Assembly: GCA_000004985.1 (NCBI GenBank)
Contig: GG738845.1
DNA: 64,000 nucleotides
Direction: 5' to 3' (one strand)
Source of the DNA: Naegleria gruberi
Lineage: Eukaryota
The position numbers and the translations under genes were made by a program. Below, one piece after another: positions 6,870 through 63,667 of the stretch; the first letter of the stretch is position 1, and each line of letters starts with the position of its first letter. The notes under the pieces were generated by a model. The model searched no databases and was not told the DNA's origin. It worked only from the letters and a program-made list of their open reading frames with translations.

Positions 6870-9814
6870 TTATTGGTTTTCTACCTTATAATACATGGAG
6901 TTAGCACCGTCTTGTTGGGCTTCATGATCAAATCTCTTAAATCCAGCAGCATCCTTCTTCTTCTTTCTAACCATAAAGATAGCACCGACAATAACCAACA
7001 CTACAATGATCAAAACTACTGCACCACCAACAGAGCTTCCAATAATGATACCTAGATTGTTGTTGTTGTTAGTGACTGGAGGAGCAGTGTATCTGAATTC
7101 AATGGAGAACAAAGAGCTCTTTCCAGCCTCCTTACCCAAAACTGATACAAACACAGCTTTGTCAACAACAAGCCTTTCCTTTTTGAGGGTTATAACTCTG
7201 TCAACTTCGCCGTTAGTTGTAGATTTCCACGTGTAATTCTTTGGTGATGGATCATTGAACATATCTTGATTGATAAAAACATCAACCTTTCCTTCCAATT
7301 CCTTAATGTGGAGGTAAACATCCTTAGCCTTAGCAGATTCAGTAAATGGAAGCCAGAAGCTATAAACCAATGAATCCATATTTCCGTCTGGGGCAGTTCT
7401 ACCAAGAGTTGGGACATTTTCCAAAACAGTTGCACCAATGTTACTAGCCAATGACATGTGATAAACAGAGTCTTCAATAGCATGAACAGCAATATACCAA
7501 ACTCCACGTTTAAATCCAAGATCAGTTTGCTTAAGCAAAATACTGTTACCATAAGTGTTTTGGTCAGACCAAACATAGTTAGTAGAGTTGGCCTTTTGTC
7601 CATTTGTTGAAATGTACATAACAGTCTTTCCAGAAACAAGTGAGGCAGAAGCAGTGATGATTCTCAAAGCATTAGAAATGTCAACTCTGAAATGAGTAGT
7701 GCTATTCTTTGTGGCGTTGATGAGAATAGAGTCACCATTAGGGAACAAGTTCAAATAATCAGTGGCAACTGAGAGAGTGAATGGAATAGCTCTGGTGCTT
7801 GTATCAGTTGAAACAACACCATAAACAGAAATATAAATTTCTCCTGGAATGGCATCTTCAATGGTCAAAACATCATTACCAATGTTAATGGATCTTCCTT
7901 CATAATCATATCTGTTTGGTGTCTTGACGGAAGTACTGTAGAATATATCAGCTTCATCACCGTCCTTCAGCAAGTGAAGGTTAATATAGACCTTTCCTGA
8001 AGTCTTGATATTAAGAGTATAGTAGGTATAAGCACTTTCCAAAACCGAGCTTGATGTACGCATTCCTTCAGACAGAGTAGAAATAGCTCCAACTTGAGAT
8101 GCTGAAATAGAAAAGTATGAATCAGAATCATAGGCATAGACACCAATGTAGAATGTCTTTCCAGAAGCTTTAGCATCATTAGCTGGGATGTAAACAGTGT
8201 CAACACCAACAATATCAGCATACCACTGATTGCTTTCAACTGATGGATATTGGAGAGTAGTTGAAACATAGATATCAACGTCACCGCTGGATGGCTTGGT
8301 AGTAATGGAGATGGCATTGGATGGATATTTATCAGCAACAAAGGAGAAATATCTGTATGATCCCTTTGGAACCCAATTCAAATAAACTTCTTCACCATCA
8401 TTGAGGGCCATGATTGGTTGGGAAGTGGTGACTTCAATGGAGAACTCACCAGAATCAGCAGTAACAGTAAAGTAAATGAAAGGATGTGGAGATGGAGCAT
8501 CGAACTTTAAGACGCCATTGGTACCAGTAACTGCAACAGCCTTAGAATGGTACTTTGTGGCACTAGGTCTAGAGAATTGAGCTTCATAAACATTAATTGA
8601 GGATCCAGAAACAAGCTTCACAGTGGCAACAATGGTCTTGGTGAGATCGTTATTAGCATACTTGAAAGTATAAGACTTTGTTGTTGCAGTGAATGCCTTT
8701 TGGACAGGTTGGCTGGATGAAAGAACAACTTGATTTGGGTTTTCACCGAATGCCCAAACCTTATAGTTGGTACCATTCATCAAGCCATAAACACCAATGT
8801 AATAATCACCAGCTTCAGCACTTTTAAGAGTATAGGAATCGTCTCCTGACAATGAAACAACAACATCAAATTCAGATGAAGTTGGTTTAGAACCCTTACG
8901 GATATAAACCTTGGTTTCACCTTCACCATTTCTAACTTCGATGGCTTCAATGACAATGTCTTGAACTGATTCAAGACTTCTGAATACAAATGTGTCCAAT
9001 TCATTTTCATTGACAATATCTCTGATAAAGACACCTTCTGGCAAACGCATAGATTCATCATTAACATTAACAATAACACTGTAGACTGATTCAGAGAATG
9101 CAACAACGGTAATGTTCAATTGGGTCAATCCTGGAACAACCTTAATTTTCAAAGCATCGAATCCATAATCTTCAGAAGTCCATGAAACACCATTAGAACC
9201 AGTAACATAAAGATCTGGATCACCAAAAAGACCGTTGACAGAGATTGTTACCAAAGTAGCTTCGCTTGGCAAATTAAAATAGAAGGTATTCTTCTTTCCT
9301 CTTGGAGATTCAGCAAAGATGACTTCATTCTTGTTAATATTAATAATTTCTGTGATCAAAGTGCAACTTTAAGAATTTCATAAAAGAATTGATATTACAT
9401 ACCATTAGATCCCCAAGCAATAAAAGAAAAATCAGCAGATCTTTCTTGAGCAATAATACCAACATAGAATACACCTTGAGCAAATTCAGTGGTATTGTAG
9501 TAAACAATTCTAACATCACCAAAACCATTGGCATCACGATCAAGGCAATCAGCACAAGCAGTTTTTGGATAGTCAACGGTACTGATCCACATATCACAAT
9601 CACCCGAGAGTGAGTTCAAACTAAGGGACACAAAATCTCCTTCAGTCATACCCCAGGTAGTAGTATTAACGAGATAATATTGAATTTCTCCCTTTGAAAG
9701 AGTCTTTGGAAGATTCTTGCCGGCAACGTCATAATTAACAACGACGTTTTGACCAAAAACCAGAGAGCAAAGTAAAAATGTGGTAATTGCAATGATAGCT
9801 AAAGGTACTCTCAT
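6870..9814 (-). CDS. Type I membrane glycoprotein with ~7 repeated pre-peptidase C-terminal (PPC)-like beta-sandwich domains; 2 exons: 9814-9403 and 9349-6870
   Basis: Exon 1 begins MRVPLAIIAITTFLLCSLVFG, a signal peptide. A GTATGT donor at 9402 pairs with a CAG acceptor at 9350, giving a 53-nt intron that keeps the frame into the 829-aa ORF. Repeats carry PPC-like motifs: GDPDLYV, GDVDIYVS, GKTFYIGVYAYDSDSYFSISA and GDYYIGVYGLMNGTNYKV. The C-terminus has a TM helix (LGIIIGSSVGGAVVLIIVVLVIVGAIFMV) followed by a basic stop-transfer sequence. An alternative GTAATA donor 6 nt away is also possible. Confidence 0.65.
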
Positions 9815-12468: not shown

Positions 12469-13106
12469 TGTACTGTATGTTCGTTCATGTTGTTGTTATT
12501 GTTGTACATTTGATGAGGAATTGTTGTTATTATATTTGATGATGAGTTAAAGTTTGATAATGATTTGATGAAAATAGAATTAGGGTTGAAGATGAGAGAA
12601 AACACAAACCTCTGAGCTAAACATTGTTGAACTTTTCTCTTTACGTGGAATGTATAGACATTCTCTTGTTCATTACAATCAAGTTCTGCATTCTCCGTAA
12701 CAATTTCAAATCTACATTCATCAACAAAAGTTATAATTGTATATTCTTCTTCTAATAATAATAATAATACATACTTGTTCAGTTTATCATTATAACTCAT
12801 GATAGAAGTGATTGGATCGTAGGTAGCAAACCAATCGGATTGATCTCTTGATATTGATCCCATTAAATCGTGTCCATAAACTTTAGTCATATTTTCAGCA
12901 TCCTCTTTTGATGGTGCTTTGAATGCCTTTCCTGTTTGAGCGGATTCATTTTCCAATCTTCTTCTTAAAATATGAAATGCTGGCCTTGGAATAATCTTGG
13001 CATATTTATCAGTATCTTCAAAGTATTTAACTACAATCATTTTCATTGGTTTTCTCTTCGGAATTTTACTTCCTTGAGCAGATGATGATGTCACTTCTTC
13101 TGTCAT
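12465..13106 (-). CDS. Conserved-looking ORF of unknown function; probably the 5' exon of the downstream TBC/TLDc gene rather than a separate gene
   Basis: 213-aa ORF. The N-terminal 150 aa look like coding sequence (MIVVKYFEDTDKYAKIIPRPAFHILRRRL ... NVYTFHVKRK). Its stop (12465-12467) overlaps the ATG of the next ORF (12468). A GTTTGT donor at 12609 and a CAG acceptor at 12473 would splice it in frame to that ATG. Confidence 0.45.
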   Translation of the reverse strand: MTEEVTSSSAQGSKIPKRKPMKMIVVKYFEDTDKYAKIIPRPAFHILRRRLENESAQTGKAFKAPSKEDAENMTKVYGHDLMGSISRDQSDWFATYDPITSIMSYNDKLNKYVLLLLLEEEYTIITFVDECRFEIVTENAELDCNEQENVYTFHVKRKVQQCLAQRFVFSLIFNPNSIFIKSLSNFNSSSNIITTIPHQMYNNNNNMNEHTVQ

Positions 13107-17502: not shown

Positions 17503-18357
17503 TTAAATATCAGCATTGAGTCCTCCAAACATTTTCTCTTCCATCTTTTTCAACTTTTTCAATTCCTTTCTTTCCTTCTTTTCTTCCTTCTTTCTTTTCT
17601 TTTCCTCTTTTGAAAGTTTCTTCTTTGGTTCTTCATTTTCCTTCTTTTCAAGTTGAGTTGGTGATTTCACAACAGCTGAGCCTTCATCCTCTCCATCCTC
17701 TTCTTCATCACTAGAATCGTGTCTTCCATTTGATGGTGATCCCTCAAACATGGTCATCATTAGATACTTGTGAAGCCAATTAGGATCTCTCTTTTTCATG
17801 GCATCATGATACAAAGTCCACTCAAAATCATCATTAGCCTTCTTTACTTTCTTATAAATCATTCCATCCTTTTCCATAGTTTCATATTTCGGAACATTTT
17901 CCTTCTTATCTTGTTGATATCTGTTATTGAACCGACCAGTAGTAGATGATGAATTTCTTCCTCCATTCCTGCCAGAATTTTGTTGTTCTTCCGGATCTTC
18001 GACAATCTTCTTATAATAATTAGGAGCATGATCGACACATATTATTCTTCCACCCAATTCAATGCCATTCAAATTATCAATGGCCAATATTGTCGAGCGA
18101 ACATCTTCATAGGCAATAAAACAAAATCCCTTACTGGTCAATTCCTGTTCCTCACGAACCAAATCAATATCAACAATTTCTCCATATTGAGAGAAAACTG
18201 AGAGTAAATCACCTTCCGTCAATCGGAAATCCAAGCCTCCAATGTAGATGTAGGCTGTTCGATTTTTTTCCTGATGATGCCATGAAGATGGAGTGTTTGT
18301 ATAGCCCAGAGAAAGTTCCTTCTGATTCAACTCGTTGATTTGTTTTGCTCTTTTCAT
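17503..18357 (-). CDS. RRM-containing splicing factor, RBMX2/Snu17(Ist3)-like
   Basis: 284-aa ORF. It has one RRM whose RNP2 is IYIGGL and whose RNP1 is KGFCFIAYE, followed by a Lys/Glu-rich tail. This architecture matches RBMX2. Confidence 0.75.
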   Translation of the reverse strand: MKRAKQINELNQKELSLGYTNTPSSWHHQEKNRTAYIYIGGLDFRLTEGDLLSVFSQYGEIVDIDLVREEQELTSKGFCFIAYEDVRSTILAIDNLNGIELGGRIICVDHAPNYYKKIVEDPEEQQNSGRNGGRNSSSTTGRFNNRYQQDKKENVPKYETMEKDGMIYKKVKKANDDFEWTLYHDAMKKRDPNWLHKYLMMTMFEGSPSNGRHDSSDEEEDGEDEGSAVVKSPTQLEKKENEEPKKKLSKEEKKRKKEEKKERKELKKLKKMEEKMFGGLNADI

Positions 18358-18645
18358 TTTTTTTCTAAAGAATAAAAGAATATAATTCTTGTTGAATATG
18401 ACATGAAAACCTCTATTTACTCTGACTTGTAAATATGATGTTTCAAAAGTTATTACAAGGCATCGACACTACAATTCAACAAGTATATTCCTGATACTAA
18501 TTTTGACATCTTCTACTAGTCCTCTCAATTCAGAAAATTTAGTATTAATCTTAAAATCATTAAAGTTCTCTGACTTAGTATAGAGTTTATATATTATACA
18601 AAGGTTGATTAATGATATCCTCAATCATTATTTATTATTATTATT

Positions 18646-20279
18646 CTTGCTAATTAATCTACGCATGTAGTAGAATAAACTCAGTATTTCAGAAACGACA
18701 ATTTATGTCGTTGTCAAAACGCATCCGGGCTCCCTTTAAACAATCCTAATACCAATCAATTAACACCTGAGAATGATAAACCTACTTGGGAGGAAGATTT
18801 TAATAATCATTTCGAACCATGGTCACCTACTAGATTCGAAGGTGGTGAAATTCAATTCCAATTTAAAGGAACAGAGTCTGCACTTTATTCTAGAATTAGT
18901 AATGATGAGACAAATCTCTATCAATTAAATGATCTTCCAAAGTTCGAACAATTTTGCAAACGAACATACTCTAGAATCAGAACACAACTCATGTCCAATT
19001 GTCAGGCCCATATTTCCATCACAGGCATGGTAAGAAGTGGAAAAACCACAATAGCCAGAGAAATATTTCCTTTTTTCTACACTAGAGAAACTAAATATAC
19101 CTCCTATAAAATATATATAAATTAACGATAATTAATTGGATTTACAATGGTAATACTAAGCCAATAGTTGAATTTTTAAACAAAAACCCTTCAACCATGC
19201 ACTACATTATATTTAACGAAATACAGCTATGTGATACAGATGTTTTATCAATCCTTAAAAAGATTTTCAAAATACCTCAATTGATAGGGAGAAACTTATT
19301 AAGTATTTGGATAGGAAATACACAAGCAGTGTTATTGAAAAGTTGAAAATGATTCCTTCGAATGCCTATTCTTTTAATGATAACTGTTTTACTATAACAT
19401 ATTATAGGATGGAAGTTTAAAAATTTAAAAGAATTAAAAGTATATTGCAACTACAGAGAAAAAAAGATTATAAATATAGTGAAGATTTTTGATAGAGATT
19501 TTGCTAAAACTAGATCTCAGTAGATTAATTAAAGAACCAACTTAAAACCAAGTTTTATCAATACCTTAGTCGATAATGAAATTAATTGAAAATTAAGAAG
19601 CTAAATAAATTTTCAAAAGGTTATATATTTGAAATTTAGAAAAGCTTAACAAAGTAATATAAAATACAAAGACCATTAATTTTTAAAAATCTTCTTAAGT
19701 TGGTTTATCATTTTTAAGAATCTAAAGAAAATGAATTTAAAGAAAGAACAAACTTTGTAAAAATATAACAAAAACATTGTTATTGGGTCATACTATTCCA
19801 CCATTCTTTTTTAATATCAATTAGGTCTACCTTAGAGATTCATAATTCATATCGAGATTGATATGAAATATTCATTTTTTGTAAATGGAAAGTGAATCCC
19901 TTATAATATTATTATATACACCAAGCTATTTTGGGAGACTTTTGAAACCTTTTTTGTTGAAGTTTGTTGTATTGGGAAAAACAAACTCACCAAATTGTTA
20001 AAAAAAGTCAAACAGAACACAAAAAAACATTAATTACAATATTCATAATTTTATTAGCAAAAAAAGGAAATTTATTGTATCCTACAGGACTTTCATTTTA
20101 GGTTTTTGTTTGGATTATTGGTACATAATTTGAACACTTGATGTATTTTGGAGTTTATAATATCTCCTTGATATTGAATGTAATGTCATTATGATCAATT
20201 AAAAATCAATATTCTTCCAAAAAAATTCTGAAATACTAAGTTTATTCTACTATACGCGTGTACATTAATTGCTATTAGC
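18646..20279. mobile_element. 1.63-kb segment bounded by ~50-bp imperfect terminal inverted repeats (L 18646-18694, R 20226-20279); putative non-autonomous TIR element or local inverted duplication
   Basis: The reverse complement of CTTGCTAATTAATCTACGCATGTAGTAGAATAAACTCAGTATTTCAGAA (left) matches TTCTGAAATACTAAGTTTATTCTACTATACGCGTGTACATTAATTGCTATTAGC (right) at about 45 of 52 positions. The interior has no long ORF but holds coding-like fragments. Confidence 0.35.
18672..19127 (+). pseudogene. Decayed P-loop NTPase reading frame (Walker A GMVRSGKTT; NB-ARC/STAND-like or nucleotide-kinase-like) inside the TIR-bounded segment
   Basis: A stop-free frame of ~150 codons translates ...FEPWSPTRFEGGEIQFQFKGTESALYSRISNDETNLYQLNDLPKFEQFCKRTYSRIRTQLMSNCQAHISITGMVRSGKTTIAREIF, then stops. 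It has no start codon, and no GT donor lies between the P-loop and the stop. A second coding-like segment follows in another frame at ~19148-19340 (GNTKPIVEFLNKNPSTMHYIIFNEIQLCDTDVLSILKKIF). Confidence 0.35.
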
Positions 20280-21179
20280 TTAAAAAACCATCTGATCAAT
20301 TCAATAAACCATAAAACCAAATCTGAAATATCTATTCTAACAATTTATTATATGATTTGTGTGTTTAGTTAATTTTTAAATTTAATGCAGAGAATAAATT
20401 ATAGAGTTTTCGTCTTGTTCTTGATATCCACCACCCAACAATTTCTTTAGATAATTGGATATCCAAATAAAAATAACATTTTACTAGATCTGAAATTTCT
20501 ATAGAAGTCTTGTTTTGTATTGTTATTTTGTGTTAAGGTGATAAGTAAATTTTTCAATAATGACAGACCTAATAAACACCTTCAAATTTTACATTATTTT
20601 TCATCAAGAAAACATCTTGAAAAAATGATTTAAGAAAGAAAAATCCAATCCATCATTAATGGTTGGAATATTCAAAACAATCTGATAAGTTGTAGCTATC
20701 ATTGAAACATCTTAATGGTATAAATGGTCCGCATTGAATTTAATAAAGTGCTTTTTATTAAGGTTTGAAAGTTACTAAGATCAAATAAATTATCTGGCAC
20801 CATAAAGTAAAAAAAATGAAACTACCCTCACAACCACACAAAATATTCAATAGGATTTATAATAATAATGAAAGAAATAATTTAATAGATGGCACAGAAA
20901 TACAAGTCCATTATTTTACTAAATTATTTTATAACAATACAAATATTAATTTACCACTAAACAAAACAACATTATTAGGAAAAAAAGGAAATATAGTTAA
21001 CTCCTTTGTTAAATTAATTCATCAATACTTTATTCGGAACCTAATTGAAGATTCTAAGTTGTATTGTTTTCTAGTAATTGTTATATATTGTACTTTGAAT
21101 ATCGTTGTTCAATTCATCGATAATCAATTTCAATTCATTTCTACAAACAACAACTTCTGATGAATTGACAGATAATCCA

Positions 21180-21740
21180 TCATAACCATGAATGCATTTG
21201 CCCTTGTAAACTTCATTCAATTCTAACGTCTTGTTTAGCATTACAAATTTCTTATTTTTGTAATCTAAAATCTTATCCTTGTAAAAAAGTCATGAAATGT
21301 TTTGGACTTCTTCTTCCAAAATTCAAATAACAAAGATTAGAATATTTCTGCATTCCTATACAAGTTATGTTTTCCCAAATAAATAGGTGTGTTCTCTAGA
21401 TAACGAAAATTCATTCCAATTTCCAACTCTCAATGCATAATAATAACCTCTAAGGGCTGGTAAAATTGTCTCAAACTTCTGTTGAATTGATATATAATTC
21501 ATCATAGCCGTGAATGTATTTTCCTTTGTATACTTCATTCAACTCTAATGTTTTGTTTAACATAATAAACTTCTTATTTTTGTAATCAATTAATCTTTTG
21601 TGTTTTTTAGAATTCTCCAAATACAATTTCTCCAATTTCTTCGAAGAACATTATAAAATTTTCTGTAAAAACATCATGAAATGTTTTAGACTTTTTCTTC
21701 CAAAAATTCAAATAATAAAGATTAACGATCACAGAAACCC
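21180..21740. repeat. Two tandem ~300-bp diverged repeat copies (21180-21300 region and 21480-21740 region) carrying minus-strand ORF fragments
   Basis: The copies share TGAATTGA(C/T)A...CATCATA(A/G)CC(A/G)TGAATG(C/T)ATTT(G/T)CC(C/T)TTGTA(A/T)ACTTCATTCAA(T/C)TCTAA(C/T)GT(C/T)TTGTTTA(G/A)CAT(T/A)A(C/T)AAA(T/C)TTCTTATTTTTGTAATC ... GTCATGAAATGTTTT(G/A)GACTT(C/T)TTCTTCCAAAATTC. On the minus strand they translate to DYKNKKF(I/V)MLNKTLELNEVYKGK(Y/C)IHGYD... and NFWKKKSKTFHD(V/F)F... Confidence 0.5.
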
Positions 21741-21934
21741 AAAAAAATCAACCAGTATTTTATAAATCAAAACACACTAACAAGAACCACTGATCCAACC
21801 ATAACAACACATTTAATGAAACCGAAGTACTTTAATACAATATTATACTAAGAAAACTCCAACACACCACTCTCAAAATTAAAAACTCAATCTTCCTTAT
21901 TGCAGCCATATGATTTGAAACCACGAATAAAATT

Positions 21935-22025
21935 TGATGAGTGTGGGATTTGAACCCACGCCCTTGCGGAACACGGTATTAATCATACCTTAACGTGTCG
22001 TCTTAGACCACTCGACCAACTCACC
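21935..22025 (-). tRNA. tRNA-Leu (anticodon AAG) with an 11-nt intron 3' of position 37
   Basis: Sense strand: GGTGAGTTGGTCGAGTGGTCTAAGACGACACGTTAAGG[TATGATTAATA]CCGTGTTCCGCAAGGGCGTGGGTTCAAATCCCACACTCATCA. The acceptor stem is GGTGAGT/ACTCATC with discriminator A73. The D-arm (GTC/GAC, loop GAGTGGTCTAA) is type II. The anticodon stem ACACG/CGTGT carries loop TTAAGG..C. It has a long variable arm and a GTGGG-TTCAAAT-CCCAC T-arm. Four T's follow immediately, a Pol III terminator. Confidence 0.8.
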
Positions 22026-22281
22026 ATCTCTTAAATTTTTTAATATTACTATTATGTTGATTTTTGAGGAAATACTTCCAAATTATTTAATCCCTTGTGT
22101 CATGACGTTTTTGATTAACATTTAATCCATTCCATTGCTATCAGAAATACCTTTAAAATATCTGTCGTATTTAAACGTGTTGAAGCTCTTCTAGTTTAAA
22201 GCCAAACATACTTGAAACAGACCACACTCATTTTAATTATTCGTGCTTCGCACTTTCGAATTCATTTTTAAAAAAATAACC

Positions 22282-23234
22282 ATGTCCACAAATAAGACCA
22301 CATCATCATCTGATGGAGAAGAACAGAGGAACAAGCCTGTTGCACGTTTCAGCAAGGAGGATTTACCAATACTTAAGACCTTCATGGAATCTGCGTTGAA
22401 AATCTACAAGACAGAAAGAGAATGTTACAAAGCATTTGGGAAAAAGTACGGCTATTCCGAAAGTCAAGTTAAACGTAACTACACTGAAAAAATTCGGCCA
22501 TTACTTACTTACTGATAAAGATGATTTGAAAGAAAAATTTAAAAAACGAGCAGCCAATGATGACGACGTTGAAATGGAACGGATTTTTGATGAGAAAGAA
22601 AAGAAGAAACAAAAAATTGAACAACAAGTTGAACGTGCTAAAGAAATTGATGCTGAAATTGAGTATCAATCCGATTCATCTGAAGATTCTTTATTTTGCA
22701 CTCCTTCAAAAACACATATTACAAAAGCGTTGAATCACAAGAATGAATCAGATGTTTACTTTTCATCATTTTGAGAGTAGAACACATCATGTTTTTGCTG
22801 TAAGATATCCAAATCATTTTCTGTTCGAATTTAAAGGTGTAAGTCGTAAAGAAAAGGAAATTTTGATTGATGTGAGTGTTTCTACTTCTTTAAAAGCAAG
22901 TGATATTCAATCAATTTTTGATTCAAACAACGTTAATATTGAAAAGTTAGAAGAAAAGACTGACATATCTACTTCAGTTTACACTTTGAAACAAAAGTTG
23001 CCTAAAAGTGCAGACGCACAGCTCATCAAACAAGGGATTGGATTGCTGCCAGATTCTGAAGACAGAGTGTTCCTACTTTATTGTGAGAAGAAAGTGGATA
23101 TTTTAAAACCATCAAGTGCGAACTCTTTCGCGTTCTTTGCCTCTCCTAAACCAAAAAAACCTCAACTCGAAAGCACTCAGCAAACTCAAGATGCAAGTAC
23201 AGACAATCAAAGTACGAGAGATGCAGATGAATAA
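22282..23234 (+). CDS. Hypothetical acidic/Lys-rich protein whose reading frame is interrupted twice (three consecutive ORFs in frames 1, 2, 3)
   Basis: ORFs 22243-22515, 22436-22774 and 22743-23234 overlap by 80 and 32 nt and step +1 in frame each time. The first junction coincides with an A6 run (22487-22492), where removing one A fuses ORF1 and ORF2. No intron signals fit, because the overlap regions are GC-normal and a candidate 75-nt GT..AG is a multiple of 3. This is either sequencing indels or a pseudogene. Confidence 0.4.
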
Positions 23235-23444: not shown

Positions 23445-24674
23445 TTAGAATCTCATTGCAGGGTTGTATCCTGGTTGTGGATATCCTCTACCCATCATTG
23501 GTGGTCCATTCATTCCCATACCATTGTTGAGTGGTGGAGGTCCATTCATACCCATTCCCATTCCATTATTAAGTGGTGGTGGACCATTCATCATTCCCAT
23601 TCCATTATTAAATCCTTGTGGTGGATATCCTCTACCCATCATTGGTGGAGGCCCATTCATTCCCATTCCATTATTAAGTGGTGGAGGTCCGTTCATACCC
23701 ATTCCCATTCCATTGTTGAGTGGTGGAGGATATCCCATACCTCTTCCCATTCCATTGTTAAGTGGTGGTGGACCATTCATTCCCATTCCATTATTAAGTG
23801 GTGGAGGATAATTCATTCCTCTTCCCATTCCGTTGTTGTTGAGTGGAGGAGGACCACCTGGAATTGTGAATGGTTGTTGTTGTTGTTGTTGTTGTGGAGG
23901 TTGATTACTTCTGGCAGTAGGTTGGAGAGGAGAATCAAATAAATTCAAAACGCTATCCTTGCTAGATACTTGTGTTCTTTGTCCTGTTTGAGTGTTATCC
24001 ATAATAATGAATTCGGATAAATCATTTTGTTTTGGAGTATCTTCAAAAGTAATCAATGATGGAGTATTAGATTGTTGAACTGGTGGTTGCTTGACTTGTT
24101 GAACTGGTCTTGTTTGCTTTTGTGGAGGAGGATTAGCAATGTCATCTTGAGATGATACTGAACGTAAATTTTGTTGTCTGTTTTGTTGGAAATTTTGTGT
24201 AGAGATTGATTGTTTGAGTGGAGTGGTTGGTGTAGTGGCAGGTGATGAATCCTCACTATTCAAATCCAAATTTCCGTATTCTCTAGCATATGCATCATTA
24301 TCAATCCAAAGTTTTCTCTCATATTTTGCTCTGATAAACTTTTCCACTGTTGCAGTATCGGTATCTGCTGTTGGTTTTTCTCTGTCCAATTTGGCTTCGA
24401 AAATGGTATTAGCCTTCTCATTACCAAATAATTCAACCATTCTTCTTTGTTCGTCATTCCATGAATCAAGACCAACACTTCTCACCTTGGAAATATGTGT
24501 ACCTAATTTTCTATGCAAACCAGCACATCTTATACAAAAGAATACACCTTGAGTAGTACTTGCCCATTGTGGTCCTCTTGCGTTACAATCAGCACAAACC
24601 TTGTTTGATGGTATCTTTAAAAGATCATTGACAAGTTTCTTATTCCTTGAATTTTGTTCTTGTTTGCTGGACAT
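23445..24674 (-). CDS. ArfGAP-domain protein with C-terminal Gly/Met/Pro/Asn-rich tandem repeats
   Basis: The N-terminus has the ArfGAP C4 zinc finger (CADCNARGPQWASTTQGVFFCIRCAGLHRKLGTHISKVRSV) and the catalytic Arg. The C-terminal 150 aa are repeats of PPPLNNGMG(R/M)GMN(Y/G). Confidence 0.8.
   Translation of the reverse strand: MSSKQEQNSRNKKLVNDLLKIPSNKVCADCNARGPQWASTTQGVFFCIRCAGLHRKLGTHISKVRSVGLDSWNDEQRRMVELFGNEKANTIFEAKLDREKPTADTDTATVEKFIRAKYERKLWIDNDAYAREYGNLDLNSEDSSPATTPTTPLKQSISTQNFQQNRQQNLRSVSSQDDIANPPPQKQTRPVQQVKQPPVQQSNTPSLITFEDTPKQNDLSEFIIMDNTQTGQRTQVSSKDSVLNLFDSPLQPTARSNQPPQQQQQQQPFTIPGGPPPLNNNGMGRGMNYPPPLNNGMGMNGPPPLNNGMGRGMGYPPPLNNGMGMGMNGPPPLNNGMGMNGPPPMMGRGYPPQGFNNGMGMMNGPPPLNNGMGMGMNGPPPLNNGMGMNGPPMMGRGYPQPGYNPAMRF
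23464..23890. repeat. Coding tandem repeat (~45-60 nt units, ~8 copies) plus (TTG)7 tract; encodes the PPPLNNGMG repeats of the ArfGAP
   Basis: Repeated GGTGGAGGTCCATTCATACCCATTCC(CATTCC)ATTGTTGAGT-like units are visible. The + strand ORFs 23464-23811 and 23475-23942 are antisense artefacts of this repeat. Confidence 0.6.
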
Positions 24675-29017: not shown

Positions 29018-29182
29018 TTTTTTTGAATTTCAATTTAAAAATGAAAAATGTTAAATTGATGAGAATTTTGCAACTTTCTTGTGAGGTTAATTAGAAAATA
29101 CGAAATCTAAGTCATACCATGTACTTGAATAGATTAATTGTTTCCACACCACTTCTAACATGATAAGGTAAGCAACAAAATT

Positions 29183-29273
29183 TGATGAGTGTGGGATTTG
29201 AACCCACGCCCTTGCGGAACACGGTATTAATCATACCTTAACGTGTCGTCTTAGACCACTCGACCAACTCACC
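29183..29273 (-). tRNA. tRNA-Leu (AAG) with 11-nt intron, identical copy 2
   Basis: The 91-nt sequence is identical to the copy at 21935-22025. A TTTT terminator follows, and the same ~45-bp conserved 5' flank is present. Confidence 0.8.
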
Positions 29274-29607
29274 ATCTGTAAATTTTTTAATATTACCATT
29301 ATGTTGATTTTTGAAGAAATTTTAAATTAAGCATTAATTGAAATTTGTAAAGTGAGAGAAGGAAATTTAGTAAAAGATACAATTTATTAGTTATTAACAC
29401 AATTCCTTGAGTAAATTTTCTTGGAATCATTTGATAATGGTTCACGATTATCATGTTGGTTGGATTAGAGTTTCTTCTTCTTTTCGTACTGAAATCTTTT
29501 CACCTAATGACCTTTCGCGTTTAAGAGTGCCATTAACATGTTATTCTAGTTTCCAAACAGAGCTATCGGTATTTCTATAGTAAACTACGGGTTTTTCCAT
29601 TGAGGTA

Positions 29608-30649
29608 TTATTGAATATGATTTGTTTCTTCTTGAAATATATCGTTTTCAATTGATCTCAAATCAAGAATGGTTTGATTTTCATACTTTTGATTGAAATT
29701 TCTCCAATGAGAATTCATCATTGTTGATAAATATTTGGAACTCGAAAAATTATTTGAAATGGTAAAGTCTTTCTCTTCAAATCGAATGATAACTTGCTCT
29801 ATTAGTGGTATTTCATTTTCATTTGTTGTCAAATTATTGACATCGCAAGTCTTGAATGGTTCAATTCCAAATTCATCATATGGTTCAATAAATTCAAAAT
29901 CATTCACTACTTTTGACAGCCAATATAGTGCTAATTTCAAATCCATTTCAACACCCTCTCCTTTTTTGTAACAACAACCAAGATTAAATTGACCATCCTT
30001 GCACCCTTTTTCAGCAGCTTTGAAATACCACTCAAATGCTTTAACATCGTCTTGTTCTACTCCTATACCATCATCAAAGCAAACGCCAATATTTAATTGA
30101 GCTCTTGCATAACCCTTTTCAGCAGCTCTTAAATACCATTCAAATGCTTTAACATCGTCTTGCTCAACTCCTGCACCTTTTCTATAAATACATCCAATCA
30201 CAAACTGTGCATCTGTATCACCCTTTTCAGCAGCTTTTAAATACCATTCAAATGCTTTAACATAGTCTTGTTGAACGCCTTTCCCCTCCTCAAAAAATGC
30301 TCCAACATTAAATTGAGCAGTTGTATCACCCTTTTCAGCAGCTTTTAAAGTCCATCGTTCTACACAAGTGAAAAGACAAACTGCATAATATCGATACCAA
30401 CACAGCAACACAGGACCACTGATGGAGGAATTTATACAATTTTTTATTAGAAGAATAGGAAATCAATGCTGTTTGTTGATTTCTCTTCCAACCTTGATTG
30501 TATGGTGCATCTAAAATGACATAAATATTGGTTAAACCACAAAGTTCAAGACTGTCATTAATCGGATCTCTGGATGTGTAAGCGAGGATGAAGATAATCT
30601 TCTGATCATTTCCAGAAGGTATTGTTAACATCATGTTGTGGTGTAGCAC
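29608..30649 (-). CDS. Sel1-like repeat (SLR/TPR-like) protein; reading frame shifts once near an A6/T6 homopolymer (~30440-30445)
   Basis: Six or more Sel1 repeats (KAFEWYLKAAEKGDTDAQFVIGCIYRKGAGVEQD) lie in ORF 29608-30411. The N-terminal part (MLTIPSGNDQKIIFILAYTSRDPINDSLELCGLTNIYVILDAPYNQGWKRNQQ) is in ORF 30335-30649, one frame off. Both frames are open across a ~120-nt overlap that contains a T6 run. Confidence 0.55.
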
Positions 30650-47858: not shown

Positions 47859-48850
47859 CTAATCCTTTACAATATTAATCCTTAACAAGTGTTCAACTGT
47901 TTCTCTAATCATTACATTATTACCAATGAATTCAGTTAAACCCAATTCTCGTTTAATCTTCTTATTCGAATAATAAGATGGCTTTCCAAGATTACTATTA
48001 ATACCTTGTCTAATTCCTTTTGGTTGAAATAGAGCTATTCCCTTCACTAATAGACTTCCAAGTGCTCCTTCCAAAGATAATGTTGGTAATTTTTTGAGAA
48101 AGTTTCTTTCTGGGAATTCCTTCTTGATTATTTCACATACTTGTCTTATTGAAATAGTTTCATCTCCACATGAAATGAAACGTTCTCCTTTGGATGGTAA
48201 AAATCTAAGTTGATTGTCCATGTCCAGTTCCATGCATTTCACATGTGAAAGAGCAACGTCTTTAACATCTACAAATGTCATGTGCATGTCAATTAGTGCT
48301 GGCTGGCATTTCGCCATTGAGAATTTTAGCTAAAATGTCATGGGATTGGTTGACTTGTTGTGGAAGAATTGGCTTACCAATTACACCACTTGGACAAATA
48401 GTTGCCATTTCAATGAAATCTTCTCCATGTTTAGTTTGCATTTCTTTCATCAACTTCCAAGGCTCTCTGAAGTGACTTTCGAATAAAAATAAGGATTTCT
48501 ATCCACAGTTGACAATTCATTCCAATCATCCTCAGTATAAATCTTATCCTTCTCTGCTGTATCACATATAGCAACAATGGATGAAGTAATAATGATCCTT
48601 TGCAGTCTATTGTGATCTTGAGATGATTGTTCTAATCTGAGCTTGATACATTCATTCAGAATATTCAACGTTCCTTTCACAGCTGGATCCACCAACTCTA
48701 GCTGTGGATCCTTCACAGTTAACTTGTATGGACTAGCAACGTGATGTACAAATCGACATCCCTTATTTTGATTGTAATTAGTGCGCTGTTCAACTCAATT
48801 GAAGTGCTCATATGGAAGTTATCACTTGTTTGTAAAATGGTGTTTATTAA
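47859..48850 (-). pseudogene. NAD(P)-dependent epimerase/dehydratase, cinnamoyl-CoA-reductase-like; N-terminally truncated and with at least 2 frameshifts
   Basis: Fragments in three frames align in order to the CCR/DFR family. First is FVHHVASPYKLTVKDPQLELVDPAVKGTLNILNEC ... PYFYSKVTSE, carrying the YxxxK motif. After a frameshift comes PWKLMKEMQTKHGEDFIEMATICPSGVIGKPILPQ...ILAKILNG. After a second frameshift comes HMTFVDVKDVALSHV... The N-terminal Rossmann GxxGxxG segment is absent, because that position is occupied by the 3' end of the neighbouring gene. Confidence 0.55.
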
Positions 48851-50132
48851 TTGATTACCAATAAAATTACAACAAAGGTAATTGTGAATAAATAGCTCCA
48901 AATGGTAGCTGCTTGTGATGTTCTTGAAATATCAACATTAATTGATTTGGTATCTGAAAGTGTTTGATAAGTTGCCTTAAGAGAGGCTGAAGATGCAGCT
49001 GTTGCTGACAACTGAACTGAGAAGGAAGCAACACCTTCACTTGCCACTTTAGATTTATCACCAGTTATTGTAATACCAGATGATCCTACCATTTCCAAAG
49101 TGATAGTTCCTGAACCTGATTTGAGAGTATTTCCACTCGAATCCAACATTGAGACAGTTGCAGTGAATGCTGCACCACTATTCACAGAGGATGGAAGTGA
49201 GAGTTTGATACTGGAAGGTTGGGTTGGGTGACTGTGGTGGAGGTTTCACATTTACTACCAGTGTATCCTGAGAAGCATGTACACAAATCTTGACCACTAC
49301 ATGTTCCTTTACTGACAGTAGTACTGGAAGGTGCAATGCCATAACAAGTGAATTGAGATTGAGTGGCAGTCACTGTAAACTCAGCAGATGTCAATGAAGG
49401 AGCAGACATAAATTGGGTATTGATAGAAGCGAATAATTTAACAGTACCAGAGCTTGGTGCAGTGATTTCTGGACCTTTCATAATACCATTAGAAGCCATG
49501 GAAGAGTGTAAAGAACCAGGGTAGGTTAGATCAATTAAATAATTTCTTGGAACAACATTTCCATCACTATCGACAATTCTAACTTCAGGTGTGAATTTGG
49601 ATCCAGCCACAACAAGTGAAGGAGCAATAATAAGCAATTTTGAAGCAGATTTGGAACAAGCGCAATAATTTTGTACATCAACTGAACAGGAGGTAATGCT
49701 ATTCTTACATGAGAGTTTGGTAGTGTAATCAGTGGTATCAAGAATTAAGGAATTAGAGGCACTGAAACATTCTCCAACATTGTACCTGGTTTGTTCTTTA
49801 GAAAATTCAGCCACCTTGACAGAGGTATCAGTGGATGTTGTTTCAATAATGTAGGTGTGGTAGTCACCTTTTGGTGAAACCAAGAGATCCATTGCACTGA
49901 CATAATAACCAGTTGGACATTTGGTAGGACATTTAACTTCAATTGAGAAGAGGAAGGATAAGGTTACACTTCCTCCACATCTAGGACAGGAACATGTGGC
50001 TTGGGATGCTCTCTTTTGAAATAAATTGACTGGTTGGGGAATGTTGGAAGTATCACTTGTGGCAACAGTCAACTCGTAAGCAAAAGTGAAGAGGAATAGA
50101 CAAATGAGTAAAATTATATTAGAAACTTTCAT
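48847..50132 (-). CDS. Secreted Cys/Ser/Thr-rich protein with C-terminal hydrophobic tail (GPI-anchor-like); one frame discontinuity at 49182-49185
   Basis: ORF 49182-50132 has a signal peptide (MKVSNIILLICLFLFTFAYE) and is Cys-rich, with an EGF-like CSGQDLCTCFSGYTGSKC module. ORF 48847-49185 in the +1 frame continues with Ser/Thr-rich sequence ending IWSYLFTITFVVILLVIN. No intron fits the junction. Confidence 0.5.
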
Positions 50133-61475: not shown

Positions 61476-63667
61476 ATGTCCCTGCTGGATGAATTCTTTG
61501 CCGATGCTGCTGATGATACGACAACTACAACGTCGACACCTCCACCACCATCATCATCATTATTATCACTCTCTGTGCCACCACATGGTGTGCCTCCTCC
61601 GCAATCATTGAATAATACAAACCAACAACAACAACAAGTAGTAATCTACTTTTAAATCATCACCATCATCATGTATTTATTAATCCATTTCTACCTTCGA
61701 CTGTTGCTGGTATTGCTTCCCAATCTATTACAAATTTAACGCCCATTAATCTAAATCCACAGACCCTCTTTCCTTCTTCTTTGAATTCGTCAATGGTTAT
61801 GGATGACGATGGATCTACTACCACTGATGAAGCAAGTTCTTCCGGAGCACCATCACTCTCTTCTATAAACTTGTCGAGCCATGCCCAAAGATTCCACCAA
61901 GATCATGACACACTTTCTACAACTTCATCCATGAGTACTTTTTCTTCGGGATCGTATAGTCATTTCGTCCCAGATATTAATAATCAATCAACCAGTAATG
62001 GAGTAGCTACTATTGTGCAACAACAACCACAGCAACCTGTCATCAAGCCAATTATTAATACTCCAACCACAATTTCACTTTTACTTCGTGATGAAAATTT
62101 CAACATTCATATGGAGAAAATCAAGGAATTTGTAAAATTGACCAACAGCGGAAAAGTCATCAAAACTGGAGAATCGTTTCAAACCGATGAAGAATATCCT
62201 TATATTTTAGCCAGTAATTCATACACCTTGTCAATTGACCAGGATATTGACCAACTGTTTATTCAGTTAAAATTATTATATTCGGAAAAGTTTAAAGATT
62301 TGGAGAGCAATATTATTGATCCAATGACTTTTGTAAATACAGTATTGCGAATTGGTAACGGTATTCCACTTGTGGCTCCTAGAGGTTCACAAAATTTCAC
62401 AGATATTGATCTGAGTGATATTTTACCTCCTTCAACAATTATGATTCTTAAAGTAACAGCAGCCAATGATGGTACCTTTAAAGTAAATCTATCTGAAGAT
62501 AAGTGGAAGAAAATTGAACAAATTTGTAGAGATGTCATACTTTTGGATGAACATAAGGAACATATTTTACAATATCTATCTATGAGAATGTCCTATGTTG
62601 CTCCTAATTTGAGCTTATTGGTTGGAACAAGAATTGCTGCCCAATTAATAGGTGCAGCAGGTGGAATTTTATTACTTTCTCAAACTTCAGCAGATGTAAT
62701 TCAATGTCTGGGAAGAGAAAAGAAGAAACTTGAAGGATTTTCTACTAAGACTTACATGGGTATGCTCCCAAAGAGGAAACAAACTTCGACTGACTCAAAG
62801 GATGGAAACTATCTCCTCTCCTATACGGCCAATGATTTTTCTCATATGAGATATACTGGATTTGTTGGATTGTGTGATTTGGTGATGGAACATACTCCAC
62901 CAAGAGAAAAACTGAGAAAGAAGGTTGCTCGTCTTGTTGCCACTAAATGTGCTCTTGCTGCCCGTATTGACAGTTGTAATTCGGCCAAGAATGGCTCAGA
63001 AGGATTACATCTTCGTGAGGATATTCAAATGGCCATCAAGAAAATGTTAGAACCACCAAAAAGAAAGGAGGACAAACCACTCCCAGCCCCAGATTCTATT
63101 AAAAAGTCTGGATCTCGAGGTGGTTCAAAATCAGCAGCTGAAAAGCAATTGGCCAGAACTTCAGAATTGAGAAAGAAATATGCCAGATTACCATTTGGAG
63201 AATCAGGTTCAGATGATTCCTATACTGGAGATGGATCAGGAACCATGTTGGGCGATGAAGGCAAGAAGGGATTGGGCCGATCTCTAAGTGTACACAATGC
63301 AATTCTTGCTTCTGGCAAACGATACGAAAACAAGCACAAAAAGAAGGAGAAAAAACATACATCTGGCTCATCAACTGGGGTCAATACTGCACTTTCATCT
63401 TCCTCGGCTTACTTTGATGGTATCAGCACAATTTCAAACACCTCAATTTTCAAGAGTGGTACTGCTACTCAAATCATCAGAACTGGTACTGCCACTTCCA
63501 TGGCAATTAGCAATAACAATGAAATGGAAATTCTTAACCCTAATCTTATTGCAGAAGATCAGAAACGAAAGACAGAACAAAAGAAGGGATACTTTTCTAT
63601 GGATACTAAATTTAAGAAACCATCAGATGTTATGGCACCACCTTCTTCCACTGAAAAGAAAAAATAA
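61476..63667 (+). CDS. Prp31-like U4/U6 snRNP protein (Nop domain); N-terminal 55 codons in a different frame from the main ORF
   Basis: ATG at 61476: MSLLDEFFADAADD..., compare Prp31 MSLADELLADLEE. The frame then changes inside a (CAA)5 tract at ~61623-61640, and the main ORF 61781-63667 continues. It carries Prp31/Nop hallmarks: LYSEKFKDLESNI, the Nop core VAPNLSLLVGTRIAAQLIGAAGGILLLSQ, and GFVGLCDLVMEHTPP...KVARLVATKCALAARID. The discontinuity is a 1-2-nt frameshift, or less likely a 125-nt GTAGTA..CAG intron. Intron is less likely because the segment is not AT-rich and stays open in the downstream frame. Confidence 0.65.

What the first reader, a model, noticed from the sequence alone, without database searches (positions are those of the whole stretch)
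22282..23234. Cluster of single-nucleotide frame discontinuities in otherwise intact genes across the window
There are at least six sites where two long, coding-like ORFs abut or overlap in adjacent frames with no room for an intron:
- 22436-22515 and 22743-22774;
- 30335-30411 (Sel1 gene, at a T6/A6 run);
- 49182-49185 (secreted protein);
- ~61620-61650 (Prp31-like, inside (CAA)5);
- 12465-12468 (TBC gene);
- 48317-48450 (reductase, two shifts).
Several coincide with homopolymer or triplet-repeat tracts. This many in 64 kb suggests systematic indel errors in a draft assembly. If the sequence is accurate, it would instead mean an unusual local density of recently inactivated genes.
Basis: seen in the sequence. 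Interest (0 to 1): 0.5.

Follow-up and report, generated by a model that had tools for sequence, protein, structure and literature searches.

The report
Introns and decaying genes, not assembly errors
In this stretch of Naegleria amoeba DNA, the reading-frame breaks are a mix of ordinary short introns and small 4-5-base duplications or deletions in dispensable genes, most likely real mutations rather than sequencing mistakes, so the finding is largely ordinary.

Summary
The frame breaks exist, but they have several causes and none could be shown to be a single-base change. The window is nuclear DNA of a Naegleria close to, but not identical with, N. gruberi NEG-M.

- **TBC site:** a normal 137-nt intron; orthologues read straight across it.
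- **Reductase:** an old pseudogene. Its (CCAG)2 duplication is also present in an independent Illumina metagenome assembly of a 99% identical sister strain. The window adds a private 4-bp deletion and a 350-bp deletion.
- **Secreted EGF gene:** carries a private 5-bp tandem duplication, (ACCCA)2. The sister strain has it intact.
- **Focal gene, 22282-23234:** belongs to a Naegleria-specific family whose members are continuous across both junctions. No intron signals are present. Break 1 sits on (TTAC)3, one of only two such repeats in 64 kb. Break 2 sits at (GAAT)2 or a T4 run. The sister strain has deleted 675 bp of this gene.
- **Sel1 and Prp31:** unresolved; each is either a non-canonical intron or a small indel.

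Homopolymer runs agree with the sister assembly in 118 of 120 cases. All 1-2-nt differences lie outside intact coding sequence. Systematic assembly error is therefore not supported. Recent gene decay by short tandem duplication is the best reading. Interest is low.

The parts
22282..23234 (+). Focal gene: a frameshifted member of a Naegleria-specific family. It has an N-terminal 3-helix bundle, a long helix and a C-terminal alpha-crystallin-like beta-sandwich. It is read in frames 1, 2 and 3 in turn.
   Evidence: - ORFs and codon usage.
- An exhaustive HMMER search found N. gruberi XP_002674129 (E = 2e-45, one stretch covering query residues 13-300), XP_002672011, N. fowleri FDP41_012129 and two others. 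All are continuous across both junctions.
- AF2 model and Foldseek.
22501..22512 (+). (TTAC)3 tetranucleotide repeat immediately before the frame-1 stop (TGA, 22513-22515). This is the probable site of a 4-bp slippage insertion causing break 1 (+1).
   Evidence: - Only two tetranucleotide x3 loci occur in 64 kb, and none in 35.4 kb of intact CDS, so the chance of one falling in the 80-nt overlap is about 0.0025.
- The family HMM places the switch here. The 'PLLT|DKDD' reading scores 177.1 bits. The 46-nt 'intron' loses 5 bits and an early switch loses about 38 bits.
- No candidate intron has a consensus donor.
22741..22763 (+). Zone of break 2 (+1). It contains (GAAT)2 at 22741-22748, a possible 4-bp duplication, and a T4 run at 22760-22763, a possible 1-nt insertion.
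   Evidence: - Frame 3 opens at 22734, and the family motif FHHFE is read in frame 3 from 22761.
- HMM scores: GAAT removed 177.1 bits, one T removed 175.2-175.7 bits, shift at the stop codon 167.9 bits.
- No consensus-donor intron candidate.
12473..12609 (-). Ordinary spliceosomal intron of the TBC/TLDc gene (GAG|GTTTGT...ATACAG|T, 137 nt, phase 2). It is stop-free in the upstream frame and was mistaken for a frameshift.
   Evidence: - Orthologues from N. fowleri, Willaertia magna and a metagenome read '...CLAQSTMTFSSIGGAETW...' with no insertion.
- Sister-strain contig L002 has the same arrangement. It differs only by a 3-bp change in the intron and an in-frame 6-bp change in an exon.
49220..49229 (-). 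(ACCCA)2: a 5-bp tandem duplication that frameshifts the secreted EGF-domain protein gene (48847-50132). It cuts off the C-terminal ~130 residues, including the hydrophobic tail.
   Evidence: Sister-strain contig L001 has a single ACCCA and an uninterrupted 461-aa ORF.
47859..48794 (-). NAD-dependent reductase (3-beta-HSD / cinnamoyl-CoA-reductase-like) pseudogene. It is 5'-truncated with no start codon. It carries a 4-bp deletion near 48462, a (CCAG)2 duplication at 48299-48306, and a 350-bp deletion junction near 48764.
   Evidence: - Translation and Pfam.
- Full-length homologues are 395-396 aa.
- (CCAG)2 is also present in L001.
- The 4-bp and 350-bp deletions are private to the window.
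- L001 carries a further N-terminal frameshift and a G-to-R change in the GxxGxxA motif.
- The annotated NEG-M protein P0003 ends in an out-of-frame translation.
30338..30462 (-). Sel1-repeat gene (29608-30634): overlap zone of frame 0 (ATG at 30634) and frame 1 (the Sel1 repeats). A +1 change is needed. It contains an A6 run (30440-30445) and a perfect (CTGTGTTG)2 (30398-30413). The alternative is a 133-nt intron at 30360-30492 with donor GTTGGA.
   Evidence: -.
- The 40-nt 'intron' from the only consensus donor would delete ERWTLK of the first Sel1 repeat, so it is rejected.
- The stretch 30361-30445 is non-coding-like in both frames.
61616..61762 (+). Prp31 gene (61476-63667). The N-terminal 54 codons are in frame 3 and the rest in frame 2, with overlap at 61616-61655. 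The candidate is a 125-nt intron at 61638-61762 (CAA|GTAGTA...CTAAATCCACAG|AC, phase 0) with a non-consensus donor.
   Evidence: - Pfam Nop and Prp31_C, and a match to human Prp31.
- Intron enumeration.
- The candidate stretch scores -0.01 bits per codon, against 0.36 and 0.34 in the flanks.
- No tandem-duplication footprint.

Best explanation
The 'cluster of frame discontinuities' is not one phenomenon.

**(a) Ordinary introns.** Part of it is short Naegleria introns that happen to contain no stop codon. These introns are 44-137 nt long, with GT[AT][AT]GT donors. The upstream ORF therefore runs into them. This is shown for the TBC gene and is possible for Prp31 and Sel1.

**(b) Small insertions and deletions, most likely real.** The rest is small indels in genes this lineage can do without. 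Most are replication-slippage duplications of 4-5 nt.

- *Reductase:* an old unitary pseudogene that keeps collecting lesions.
- *Secreted EGF protein gene:* carries a private 5-bp duplication.
- *Focal gene, 22282-23234:* a lineage-specific family member broken twice. Break 1 is at a (TTAC)3 microsatellite. Break 2 is at (GAAT)2 or a T4 run. The nearest known strain has lost this gene through a 675-bp deletion.

**Shown:**
- the TBC intron;
- the indels relative to the sister strain;
- the shared reductase lesion;
- continuity of homologues across the focal junctions;
- the absence of intron signals there.

**Inferred:**
- that the private indels are real mutations rather than consensus errors;
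- that the focal breaks arose by tandem duplication;
- that these genes are non-functional in this strain.
For: **Organism.** The closest named proteins are from N. gruberi, N. fowleri and Willaertia.

**Introns.** Nine verified introns all have GT[AT][AT]GT donors, are 44-137 nt long and have GC of 0.18-0.33. The TBC intron is proven by three orthologues.

**Sister-strain contigs L001-L003** come from ENA metagenome ERZ929261 and are 99-99.5% identical to the window. They show:
- the 5-bp (ACCCA) duplication, the 4-bp deletion and the 350-bp deletion are private to the window;
- (CCAG)2 is shared;
- a 675-bp deletion has removed window positions 22228-22902 of the focal gene in the sister strain;
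- the sister strain's reductase has extra lesions of its own.

**Focal gene.**
- Homologues are continuous over both junctions.
- HMM scoring localises both switches.
- (TTAC)3 is one of two such loci in 64 kb.
- No consensus-donor intron candidates exist.

**Assembly quality.**
- 118 of 120 homopolymer runs are concordant.
- All five 1-2-nt differences are intergenic, while differences in intact CDS are 3, 6 and 6 bp.
- About 35 kb of long conserved ORFs (actin, a mitochondrial carrier, MFS, and the 2516-aa and 1174-aa ORFs) have no break.
Against: - No reads or transcripts of this strain could be examined.
- Exact-product look-ups found nothing from this strain. The private indels (two in the focal gene, ACCCA, and the 4-bp deletion) therefore rest on a single assembly.
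- Prp31 is an essential gene, so a real frameshift there is unlikely. Its candidate intron has a donor (GTAGTA) unlike all nine verified donors.
- The indel-to-substitution ratio against the sister strain is high: 16 small indels to 35 substitutions.
- (GAAT)2 in a 41-nt window has about a 15% chance expectation, so the mechanism of break 2 is not settled.
Confidence: 0.7

Rival explanations
1. Assembly or consensus errors. The indels private to this assembly are artefacts of assembly or polishing, and the genes are intact in the organism. This covers both focal breaks, the ACCCA duplication, the 4-bp reductase deletion, and the Sel1 and Prp31 breaks.
For: - All of these are seen only in this window.
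- The sister strain has an intact secreted gene and the undeleted reductase motif.
- Prp31 is essential, yet its frames disagree.
- Short tandem repeats are also places where long-read consensus can slip.
- The indel-to-substitution ratio against the sister strain is high.
Against: - Homopolymer lengths agree in 118 of 120 runs.
- No 1-2-nt difference falls in intact CDS, whereas five fall in intergenic DNA.
- Differences in conserved genes preserve the frame.
- The lesions are 4-5 nt, some with adjacent substitutions, which is not a typical error profile.
- One lesion of the same type, (CCAG)2, is confirmed in an independent Illumina assembly.
- Breaks cluster two per gene in genes that are independently damaged or deleted in the sister strain.
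Confidence: 0.2
2. All remaining breaks are unusual introns. These would be very short or have non-consensus donors, and the spliceosome would remove them so that every gene is functional.
For: - Introns as short as 44 nt exist, and some are stop-free.
- GT..AG pairs of the right length class can be found at every junction.
- The Prp31 candidate stretch has intron-like codon usage.
- The Sel1 stretch 30361-30445 is non-coding-like in both frames.
Against: - Secreted gene and reductase: direct comparison shows insertions and deletions, not introns.
- Focal gene: no candidate has the GT[AT][AT]GT donor or a G at +5.
- Focal gene: the 46-nt candidate removes conserved family residues (RNYTEKIRPLL) and loses 5 bits.
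- Focal gene: the candidate stretches have exon-like GC of 0.28-0.41, against 0.18-0.33 for real introns.
Confidence: 0.07
3. Programmed +1 ribosomal frameshifting in the focal gene. Both breaks are +1 and both zero-frame ORFs end in UGA. 'UUU UGA G' resembles the prfB site CUU UGA C, and 'UAC UGA U' resembles the antizyme site UCC UGA U.
For: - Sequence at 22510-22516 and 22769-22775.
- Both shifts run in the same direction.
Against: - Reading break 2 at the stop codon destroys the family motif FHHFE and costs 9 bits.
- All five homologues are ordinary single ORFs with no shift.
- The sister strain has deleted the region.
- Out-of-frame TGA is simply the commonest stop in off-frames here.
- The other breaks in the window are -1 or are explained by indels.
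Confidence: 0.02

Closest known systems
Unitary (non-processed) pseudogenes decaying by small frameshifting indels
   Same: - Multiple disabling lesions occur in the same gene (two in the focal gene; two frameshifts and a 5' deletion in the reductase).
- One lesion is shared with a sister strain, and independent lesions are seen in relatives.
- Homologues are intact and co-linear.
- Codon bias is still visible, which points to recent decay.
   Different: - No expression or read data are available.
- The focal and secreted genes may be loss-of-function alleles segregating among strains or haplotypes rather than fixed pseudogenes.
Short spliceosomal introns of Naegleria (GTAAGT/GTATGT donors, ~45-140 nt)
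   Same: The TBC site fits completely. Eight other introns of this type in the window also create apparent frame changes between adjacent ORFs (1550-1632, 2481-2532, 9350-9402, 56186-56239 and others).
   Different: The focal, secreted and reductase breaks lack the donor motif or are shown to be indels. The Prp31 and Sel1 candidates have donors (GTAGTA, GTTGGA) unlike the nine verified ones.
Replication-slippage tandem duplications and microsatellite indels
   Same: - (ACCCA)2, (CCAG)2, (TTAC)3 and (GAAT)2 are perfect head-to-tail copies of 4-5-nt units at the break points.
- 7 of 16 small indels against the sister strain are perfect gains or losses of a tandem unit.
   Different: The direction of change (gain versus loss) is demonstrated only for ACCCA. 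For CCAG it is inferred from the NEG-M protein.
Homopolymer indel errors of 454, Ion Torrent or nanopore draft assemblies
   Same: They produce frame breaks in otherwise good ORFs. A T4 run (focal break 2) and an A6 run (Sel1) do lie in two of the overlap zones.
   Different: - Homopolymer lengths are concordant with an Illumina assembly.
- The resolved lesions are multi-nucleotide and not in homopolymers.
- No break occurs in ~35 kb of conserved ORFs.
Programmed +1 frameshifting (prfB, antizyme, Euplotes)
   Same: Two +1 shifts in the focal gene sit next to UGA stops in the zero frame.
   Different: - Homologues have no shift.
- The best-scoring switch points lie upstream of the stop.
- The gene is deleted in the sister strain.

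Membership tests
Spliceosomal intron (as seen in this window) | GT[AT][AT]GT donor and AG acceptor | tested here: met
   TBC site: GAG|GTTTGT...ATACAG|T at 12473-12609.
Spliceosomal intron (as seen in this window) | Removal gives a protein co-linear with orthologues | tested here: met
   TBC site: 'CLAQ|STMTFSSIGG' is identical in arrangement to N. fowleri, Willaertia and P0083.
Spliceosomal intron (as seen in this window) | Consensus donor available at the focal-gene junctions, with removal compatible with family conservation | tested here: not met
   Of 52 and 44 frame-restoring GT..AG candidates, none has a consensus donor or a G at +5. The 46-nt candidate deletes conserved residues and loses 5 bits.
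Spliceosomal intron (as seen in this window) | Consensus donor and intron-like composition at the Prp31 and Sel1 junctions | tested here: inconclusive
   - Prp31: donor GTAGTA, but codon usage of -0.01 per codon is intron-like.
- Sel1: donor GTTGGA with a good acceptor; the region is partly non-coding-like.
- No transcript data.
Systematic assembly indel error | Homopolymer length disagreements with an independent assembly | tested here: not met
   2 of 120 runs of 4 nt or more differ over 7.5 kb.
Systematic assembly indel error | Indels blind to coding frame and to gene importance | tested here: not met
   All five 1-2-nt differences are intergenic. Differences in intact CDS are 3, 6 and 6 bp. 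Conserved long ORFs are unbroken.
Systematic assembly indel error | Indel absent from the raw reads of the same strain | not testable with these tools
   No reads are available, and this strain is not in the look-up collection.
Unitary pseudogene | Disabling lesion confirmed in an independent assembly | tested here: met
   Reductase (CCAG)2 is present in both the window and L001.
Unitary pseudogene | Several independent lesions in one gene, or loss in close relatives | tested here: met
   - Reductase: two shifts plus a 350-bp deletion; L001 has a further shift and a motif mutation.
- Focal gene: two shifts in the window and a 675-bp deletion in L003.
Unitary pseudogene | Intact, co-linear homologues exist | tested here: met
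   - Reductase: P0001 and P0002 at 395-396 aa.
- Focal gene: P0085-P0089.
Unitary pseudogene | No functional product (no full-length protein, or degraded transcript) | not testable with these tools
   Needs RNA or protein data.
Programmed +1 ribosomal frameshift | Shift site conserved in homologues | tested here: not met
   All five family members are single ORFs.
Programmed +1 ribosomal frameshift | Frame switch located at the zero-frame stop or slippery codon | tested here: not met
   Break 2 read at the stop scores 9 bits worse than upstream switch points. Break 1 cannot be told apart from a TTAC insertion.

The most novel reading that the evidence does not exclude
The three loci with non-intron frame breaks each lie 0.2-2.3 kb from one of three identical copies of an intron-containing tRNA-Leu(AAG)-like gene. 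The loci are the focal gene, the Sel1 gene, and the secreted gene plus reductase. Each tRNA copy sits in a 151-nt repeat.

Indel density against the sister strain peaks right beside those copies. tRNA-gene neighbourhoods in this Naegleria lineage could therefore be hot spots of short tandem duplication and deletion, driving rapid gain and loss of lineage-specific genes. The cause could be fork stalling or element insertion at tRNA genes.
Probability: 0.08. Interest if true: 0.45.

Novelty: new member of a known kind. Interest (0 to 1): 0.2.

Why it matters
**For annotation.** Gene models in this Naegleria genome should not be 'repaired' by assuming single-base errors.
- The TBC gene needs an intron.
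- The reductase should be flagged as a pseudogene.
- The focal and secreted genes should be flagged as probable strain-specific loss-of-function alleles.

**For method.** It is a caution for sequence-only reading. Short stop-free introns mimic frameshifts. The stop codon of the upstream ORF also marks a point downstream of the real lesion.

**For biology.** The modest point is that 4-5-nt tandem duplications are the recurring way genes are broken here. Two near-identical strains have disabled the same dispensable genes by different lesions.

Tried and rejected
- **Word-indexed homologue search with the joined focal protein:** no hit. Only the exhaustive HMMER search found the family.
- **JGI metagenome scans:** nothing for the focal protein or for a Prp31 24-mer.
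- **Exact-product look-ups:** seven window ORFs were tried, to find the same strain or transcripts (ArfGAP, focal ORF3, secreted ORF, RPA12-like, Sel1 downstream and upstream, Prp31 upstream). All were negative.
- **Chimeric homologue query:** my E-value cut-off of 1e-15 was too strict, so it returned only TBC relatives. No Sel1 or Prp31 orthologues were obtained.
- **Codon-usage change-point analysis:** no resolution for break 1.
- **Prp31 N-terminal 54 residues against PDB:** too short for a significant match. The link to the Prp31 N-terminus (MSLADELLAD in human) rests on my own knowledge.
- **Non-standard genetic code (TGA as sense):** rejected, because TAA follows directly in the same frame.
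- **40-nt Sel1 intron from the only consensus donor:** rejected, because it deletes 'ERWTLK' of the first Sel1 repeat.
- **22-, 27- and 37-nt 'introns' at focal break 2:** rejected as too short and lacking the donor motif.
- **Literature searches:** nothing useful on PRJEB11402, Naegleria splice sites or pseudogenes.

Full report
**Source and setting.** The window has about 33% GC and is densely packed with eukaryotic genes. Pfam finds actin, a mitochondrial carrier, MFS, RhoGEF, TBC/TLDc, Sel1, Prp31 and a terpene-synthase-like protein. The nearest named proteins are from Naegleria gruberi NEG-M, N. fowleri and Willaertia magna. Identity to NEG-M is only 87% for the reductase. Contigs of one ENA metagenome assembly match the window at 99-99.5% nucleotide identity. 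That assembly is ERZ929261, built with MEGAHIT from run ERR1078381. The window therefore comes from a gruberi-complex Naegleria. The metagenome supplies an independent Illumina assembly of a sister strain or haplotype covering 8.2 kb of the window, as contigs L001, L002 and L003.

**Checking the observation.** At each listed place, two open frames with coding-like codon usage abut or overlap on one strand. In the focal gene the best-scoring frame moves from 1 to 2 to 3. However, 'single-nucleotide', 'no room for an intron' and 'otherwise intact' do not hold in general.

**Introns in this genome.** I verified nine introns in the window, using orthologue co-linearity or clear domain continuity.
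- All nine have GT[AT][AT]GT donors and AG acceptors.
- They are 44-137 nt long, with GC of 0.18-0.33.
- Two of them contain no stop codon in the upstream frame.

**The TBC site (12465-12495) is one of these introns.**
- N. fowleri, Willaertia and a metagenome orthologue all read '...HVKRKV..CLAQSTMTFSSIGGAETW...'.
- In the window, 'CLAQ' and 'STMTF' are separated by GAG|GTTTGT...ATACAG|T at 12473-12609.
- L002 has the same structure. It differs only by a 3-bp change inside the intron and an in-frame 6-bp change in an exon.
- This site is not a frameshift.

**Secreted EGF-domain gene (48847-50132).** Aligned with L001, the window carries an extra ACCCA that forms a perfect (ACCCA)2 at 49220-49229. 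L001 has a single uninterrupted 461-aa ORF.

**Reductase (47859-48794).**
- There is no start codon. The N-terminal Rossmann part is missing because of a 350-bp deletion relative to L001.
- The first shift is a 4-bp deletion with adjacent substitutions: GAGAAGGCTGCTTGG in L001 against GAGAG----CCTTGG in the window.
- The second shift is a (CCAG)2 duplication at 48299-48306. It is present in both the window and L001. NEG-M reads 'GEMPALIAMYMTF' in frame.
- L001 has a further shift in the N-terminal part, and its GxxGxxA motif is changed to RGTGFVA.
- The annotated NEG-M protein ends in the out-of-frame translation 'YFYHPKENVSF...'.
- This is a long-standing pseudogene, and at least one of its frameshifts cannot be an artefact of this assembly.

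**Focal gene (22282-23234): homologues.**
- The joined protein had no hit in the word-indexed search.
- The exhaustive HMMER search found a small Naegleria family. It includes NEG-M XP_002674129 (E = 2e-45, 37% identity, one stretch over residues 13-300), XP_002672011, N. fowleri FDP41_012129 and two unnamed proteins.
- All are single ORFs that align across both junctions without insertions.

**Focal gene: break 1.**
- The conserved 'SQV..N.Y..I.P.L' block is read in frame 1 up to 'IRPLL'.
- The following 'DKDDLKEK' is read in frame 2.
- The switch therefore lies within TTACTTACTTACTGA.

**Focal gene: scoring the alternatives**. A family HMM built without the window sequence gives:

| Reading | Score (bits) |
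|---|---|
| One TTAC removed | 177.1 |
| Switch at the stop (break 1) | 176.8 |
| 46-nt GTAACT..AAAG 'intron' | 171.8 |
| Early switch (break 1) | 137.4 |
| Break 2: one GAAT of (GAAT)2 removed | 177.1 |
| Break 2: one T of a T run removed | 175.2-175.7 |
| Break 2: switch at the stop | 167.9 |

The break 2 result arises because the family motif FHHFE is read in frame 3.

**Focal gene: further evidence.**
- No frame-restoring GT..AG candidate at either junction has the donor motif.
- (TTAC)3 is one of only two tetranucleotide x3 repeats in the 64 kb, and none occurs in 35.4 kb of intact CDS. Its presence in the 80-nt overlap has a chance of about 0.0025.
- (GAAT)2 alone is not significant, at about 0.15.
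- L003 shows that the sister strain has deleted window positions 22228-22902. That removes the start codon and both junctions and leaves only the last 112 codons.
- Two near-identical strains have thus disabled this gene in different ways, which is what is expected of a dispensable, decaying gene.
- An AF2 model (mean pLDDT 62.5, domains about 80) shows a 3-helix bundle coded in frame 1, a long helix in frame 2 and a beta-sandwich in frame 3. The beta-sandwich weakly resembles the alpha-crystallin/HSP20 fold.

**Is the assembly error-prone?**
- Over the 7.5 kb aligned to L001 and L002, 118 of 120 homopolymer runs of 4 nt or more have identical length.
- Across all three contigs there are 35 substitutions and 16 small indels, and 7 of the indels are perfect tandem-unit changes.
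- The five 1-2-nt indels at 50417, 50360, 50144, 22072 and 23253 are all intergenic. A sixth 1-nt alignment gap, at 48763, sits at the junction of the 350-bp deletion in the pseudogene.
- In genes that look functional the indels are 3, 6 and 6 bp. An 8-bp indel at 46828 switches between two overlapping ATGs and leaves both alleles open.
- This is the footprint of natural variation filtered by selection, not of a frame-blind error process.
- About 35 kb of long conserved ORFs are unbroken.
- Systematic assembly error is therefore not supported. For the private indels it cannot be excluded without reads, and I give it about 0.2.

**Unresolved site: Prp31.**
- The first 54 codons (MSLLDEFFADAADD...) are in frame 3. 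They resemble the Prp31 N-terminus, but that resemblance rests on my own knowledge and could not reach significance.
- The conserved body is in frame 2.
- There is no consensus donor and no tandem-duplication footprint.
- The best intron candidate is 61638-61762 (GTAGTA...CTAAATCCACAG, phase 0).
- Its codon usage in the open frame is -0.01 bits per codon, typical of the verified introns. The flanks score 0.36 and 0.34.
- Because the gene is essential, I lean slightly towards a non-canonical intron.

**Unresolved site: Sel1.**
- The only usable ATG (30634) is in frame 0, and the repeats are in frame 1.
- The 40-nt intron from the only consensus donor would delete part of the first repeat, so it is rejected.
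- A 133-nt candidate (30360-30492) has donor GTTGGA and a good acceptor.
- The overlap also holds an A6 run and a perfect (CTGTGTTG)2.
- I lean towards an indel, but weakly.

**Programmed frameshifting.**
- Both focal shifts are +1 and sit next to UGA. 'UUU UGA G' looks like the prfB site.
- Against this, the homologues have no shift, and the at-stop reading of break 2 scores 9 bits worse.
- The sister strain has deleted the region, and TGA is simply the most frequent off-frame stop here.
- I give this about 0.02.

**Verdict.** This is a heterogeneous and mostly ordinary set.
- One site is an intron, and up to three may be.
- One is an old pseudogene.
- Two or three genes carry recent frameshifting indels, mostly 4-5-nt tandem duplications.

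Novelty is low. These are new examples of known kinds of feature. The one mildly interesting regularity is the recurrent short-tandem-duplication signature. There is also a possible, post-hoc association with tRNA-gene neighbourhoods.

Noticed in passing
window 21934-22026, 29182-29274, 50567-50659 (- strand); repeat 21927-22077, 29175-29325, 50560-50710: Three identical tRNA genes scoring 47.4 bits in Rfam. Each has anticodon loop TTAAGGT (Leu-AAG by my reading), a short intron and a long variable arm, and sits in a 151-nt repeat that includes about 50 nt of conserved 5' flank. Each copy is 0.2-2.3 kb from one of the three loci with non-intron frame breaks. Indels against the sister strain are densest right beside them.
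   Followed up: partly
window 12712-12774 (- strand): The first TBC intron (GTATGT...AATGTAG, 63 nt) is a multiple of three and stop-free. A naive ORF reading inserts 21 spurious residues ('VLLLLLEEEYTIITFVDEC') into the protein.
   Followed up: yes
window 46817-46835 versus L001 4050-4075: An 8-bp indel just after the start of the 324-aa gene 46817-47791 switches between two overlapping start codons (ATGAAATGG). The window reads MKWAETLQF..., the sister strain MGYCKETLQF..., and both stay open.
   Followed up: yes
window 48847-50132 versus L001: All six substitutions between the two strains in the secreted EGF-domain gene change the amino acid. There are also in-frame 6-bp and 3-bp indels. 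The gene is evolving fast or is under relaxed constraint, apart from its frameshift.
   Followed up: partly
P0003 (N. gruberi NEG-M 3-beta-HSD family protein, 288 aa) versus window 48150-48260: The annotated NEG-M protein ends with 'YFYHPKENVSFVVEMKPSQLDKYVK'. This is the out-of-frame translation of the conserved 'RFLPSKGERF...' region. The NEG-M copy therefore seems to be disrupted too, or mis-modelled.
   Followed up: partly
window 18000-22000: A low-GC stretch (26-29%) with few convincing genes. It contains a duplicated 114-nt segment (21152-21265 and 21474-21587, 85% identical) carrying similar short ORFs ('MLNKTLELNEVYKGK...').
   Followed up: no
window 23445-24674 (- strand): An ArfGAP-like gene whose C-terminal half is a tandem array of imperfect ~40-85-nt repeats. 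The repeats encode 'GPPPLNNGMGMNG' units (repeat finder family D4).
   Followed up: no
window 50852-52120 (+ strand): A terpene-synthase-like gene (Pfam Terpene_syn_C_2, E = 2.3e-6), an enzyme class that is uncommon in protists.
   Followed up: no
window 22282-23234 and P0085-P0089: The focal gene's family appears restricted to Naegleria and close relatives. It combines a helical N-terminal domain with a C-terminal beta-sandwich resembling the alpha-crystallin/HSP20 fold (Foldseek E ~1e-3, TM to target up to 0.66). No Pfam family matches.
   Followed up: partly
window 54607-54618: (AAAT)3 is the only other tetranucleotide x3 repeat in the window. It lies in the intergenic gap between the ORFs ending at 54586 and 54826.
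   Followed up: no
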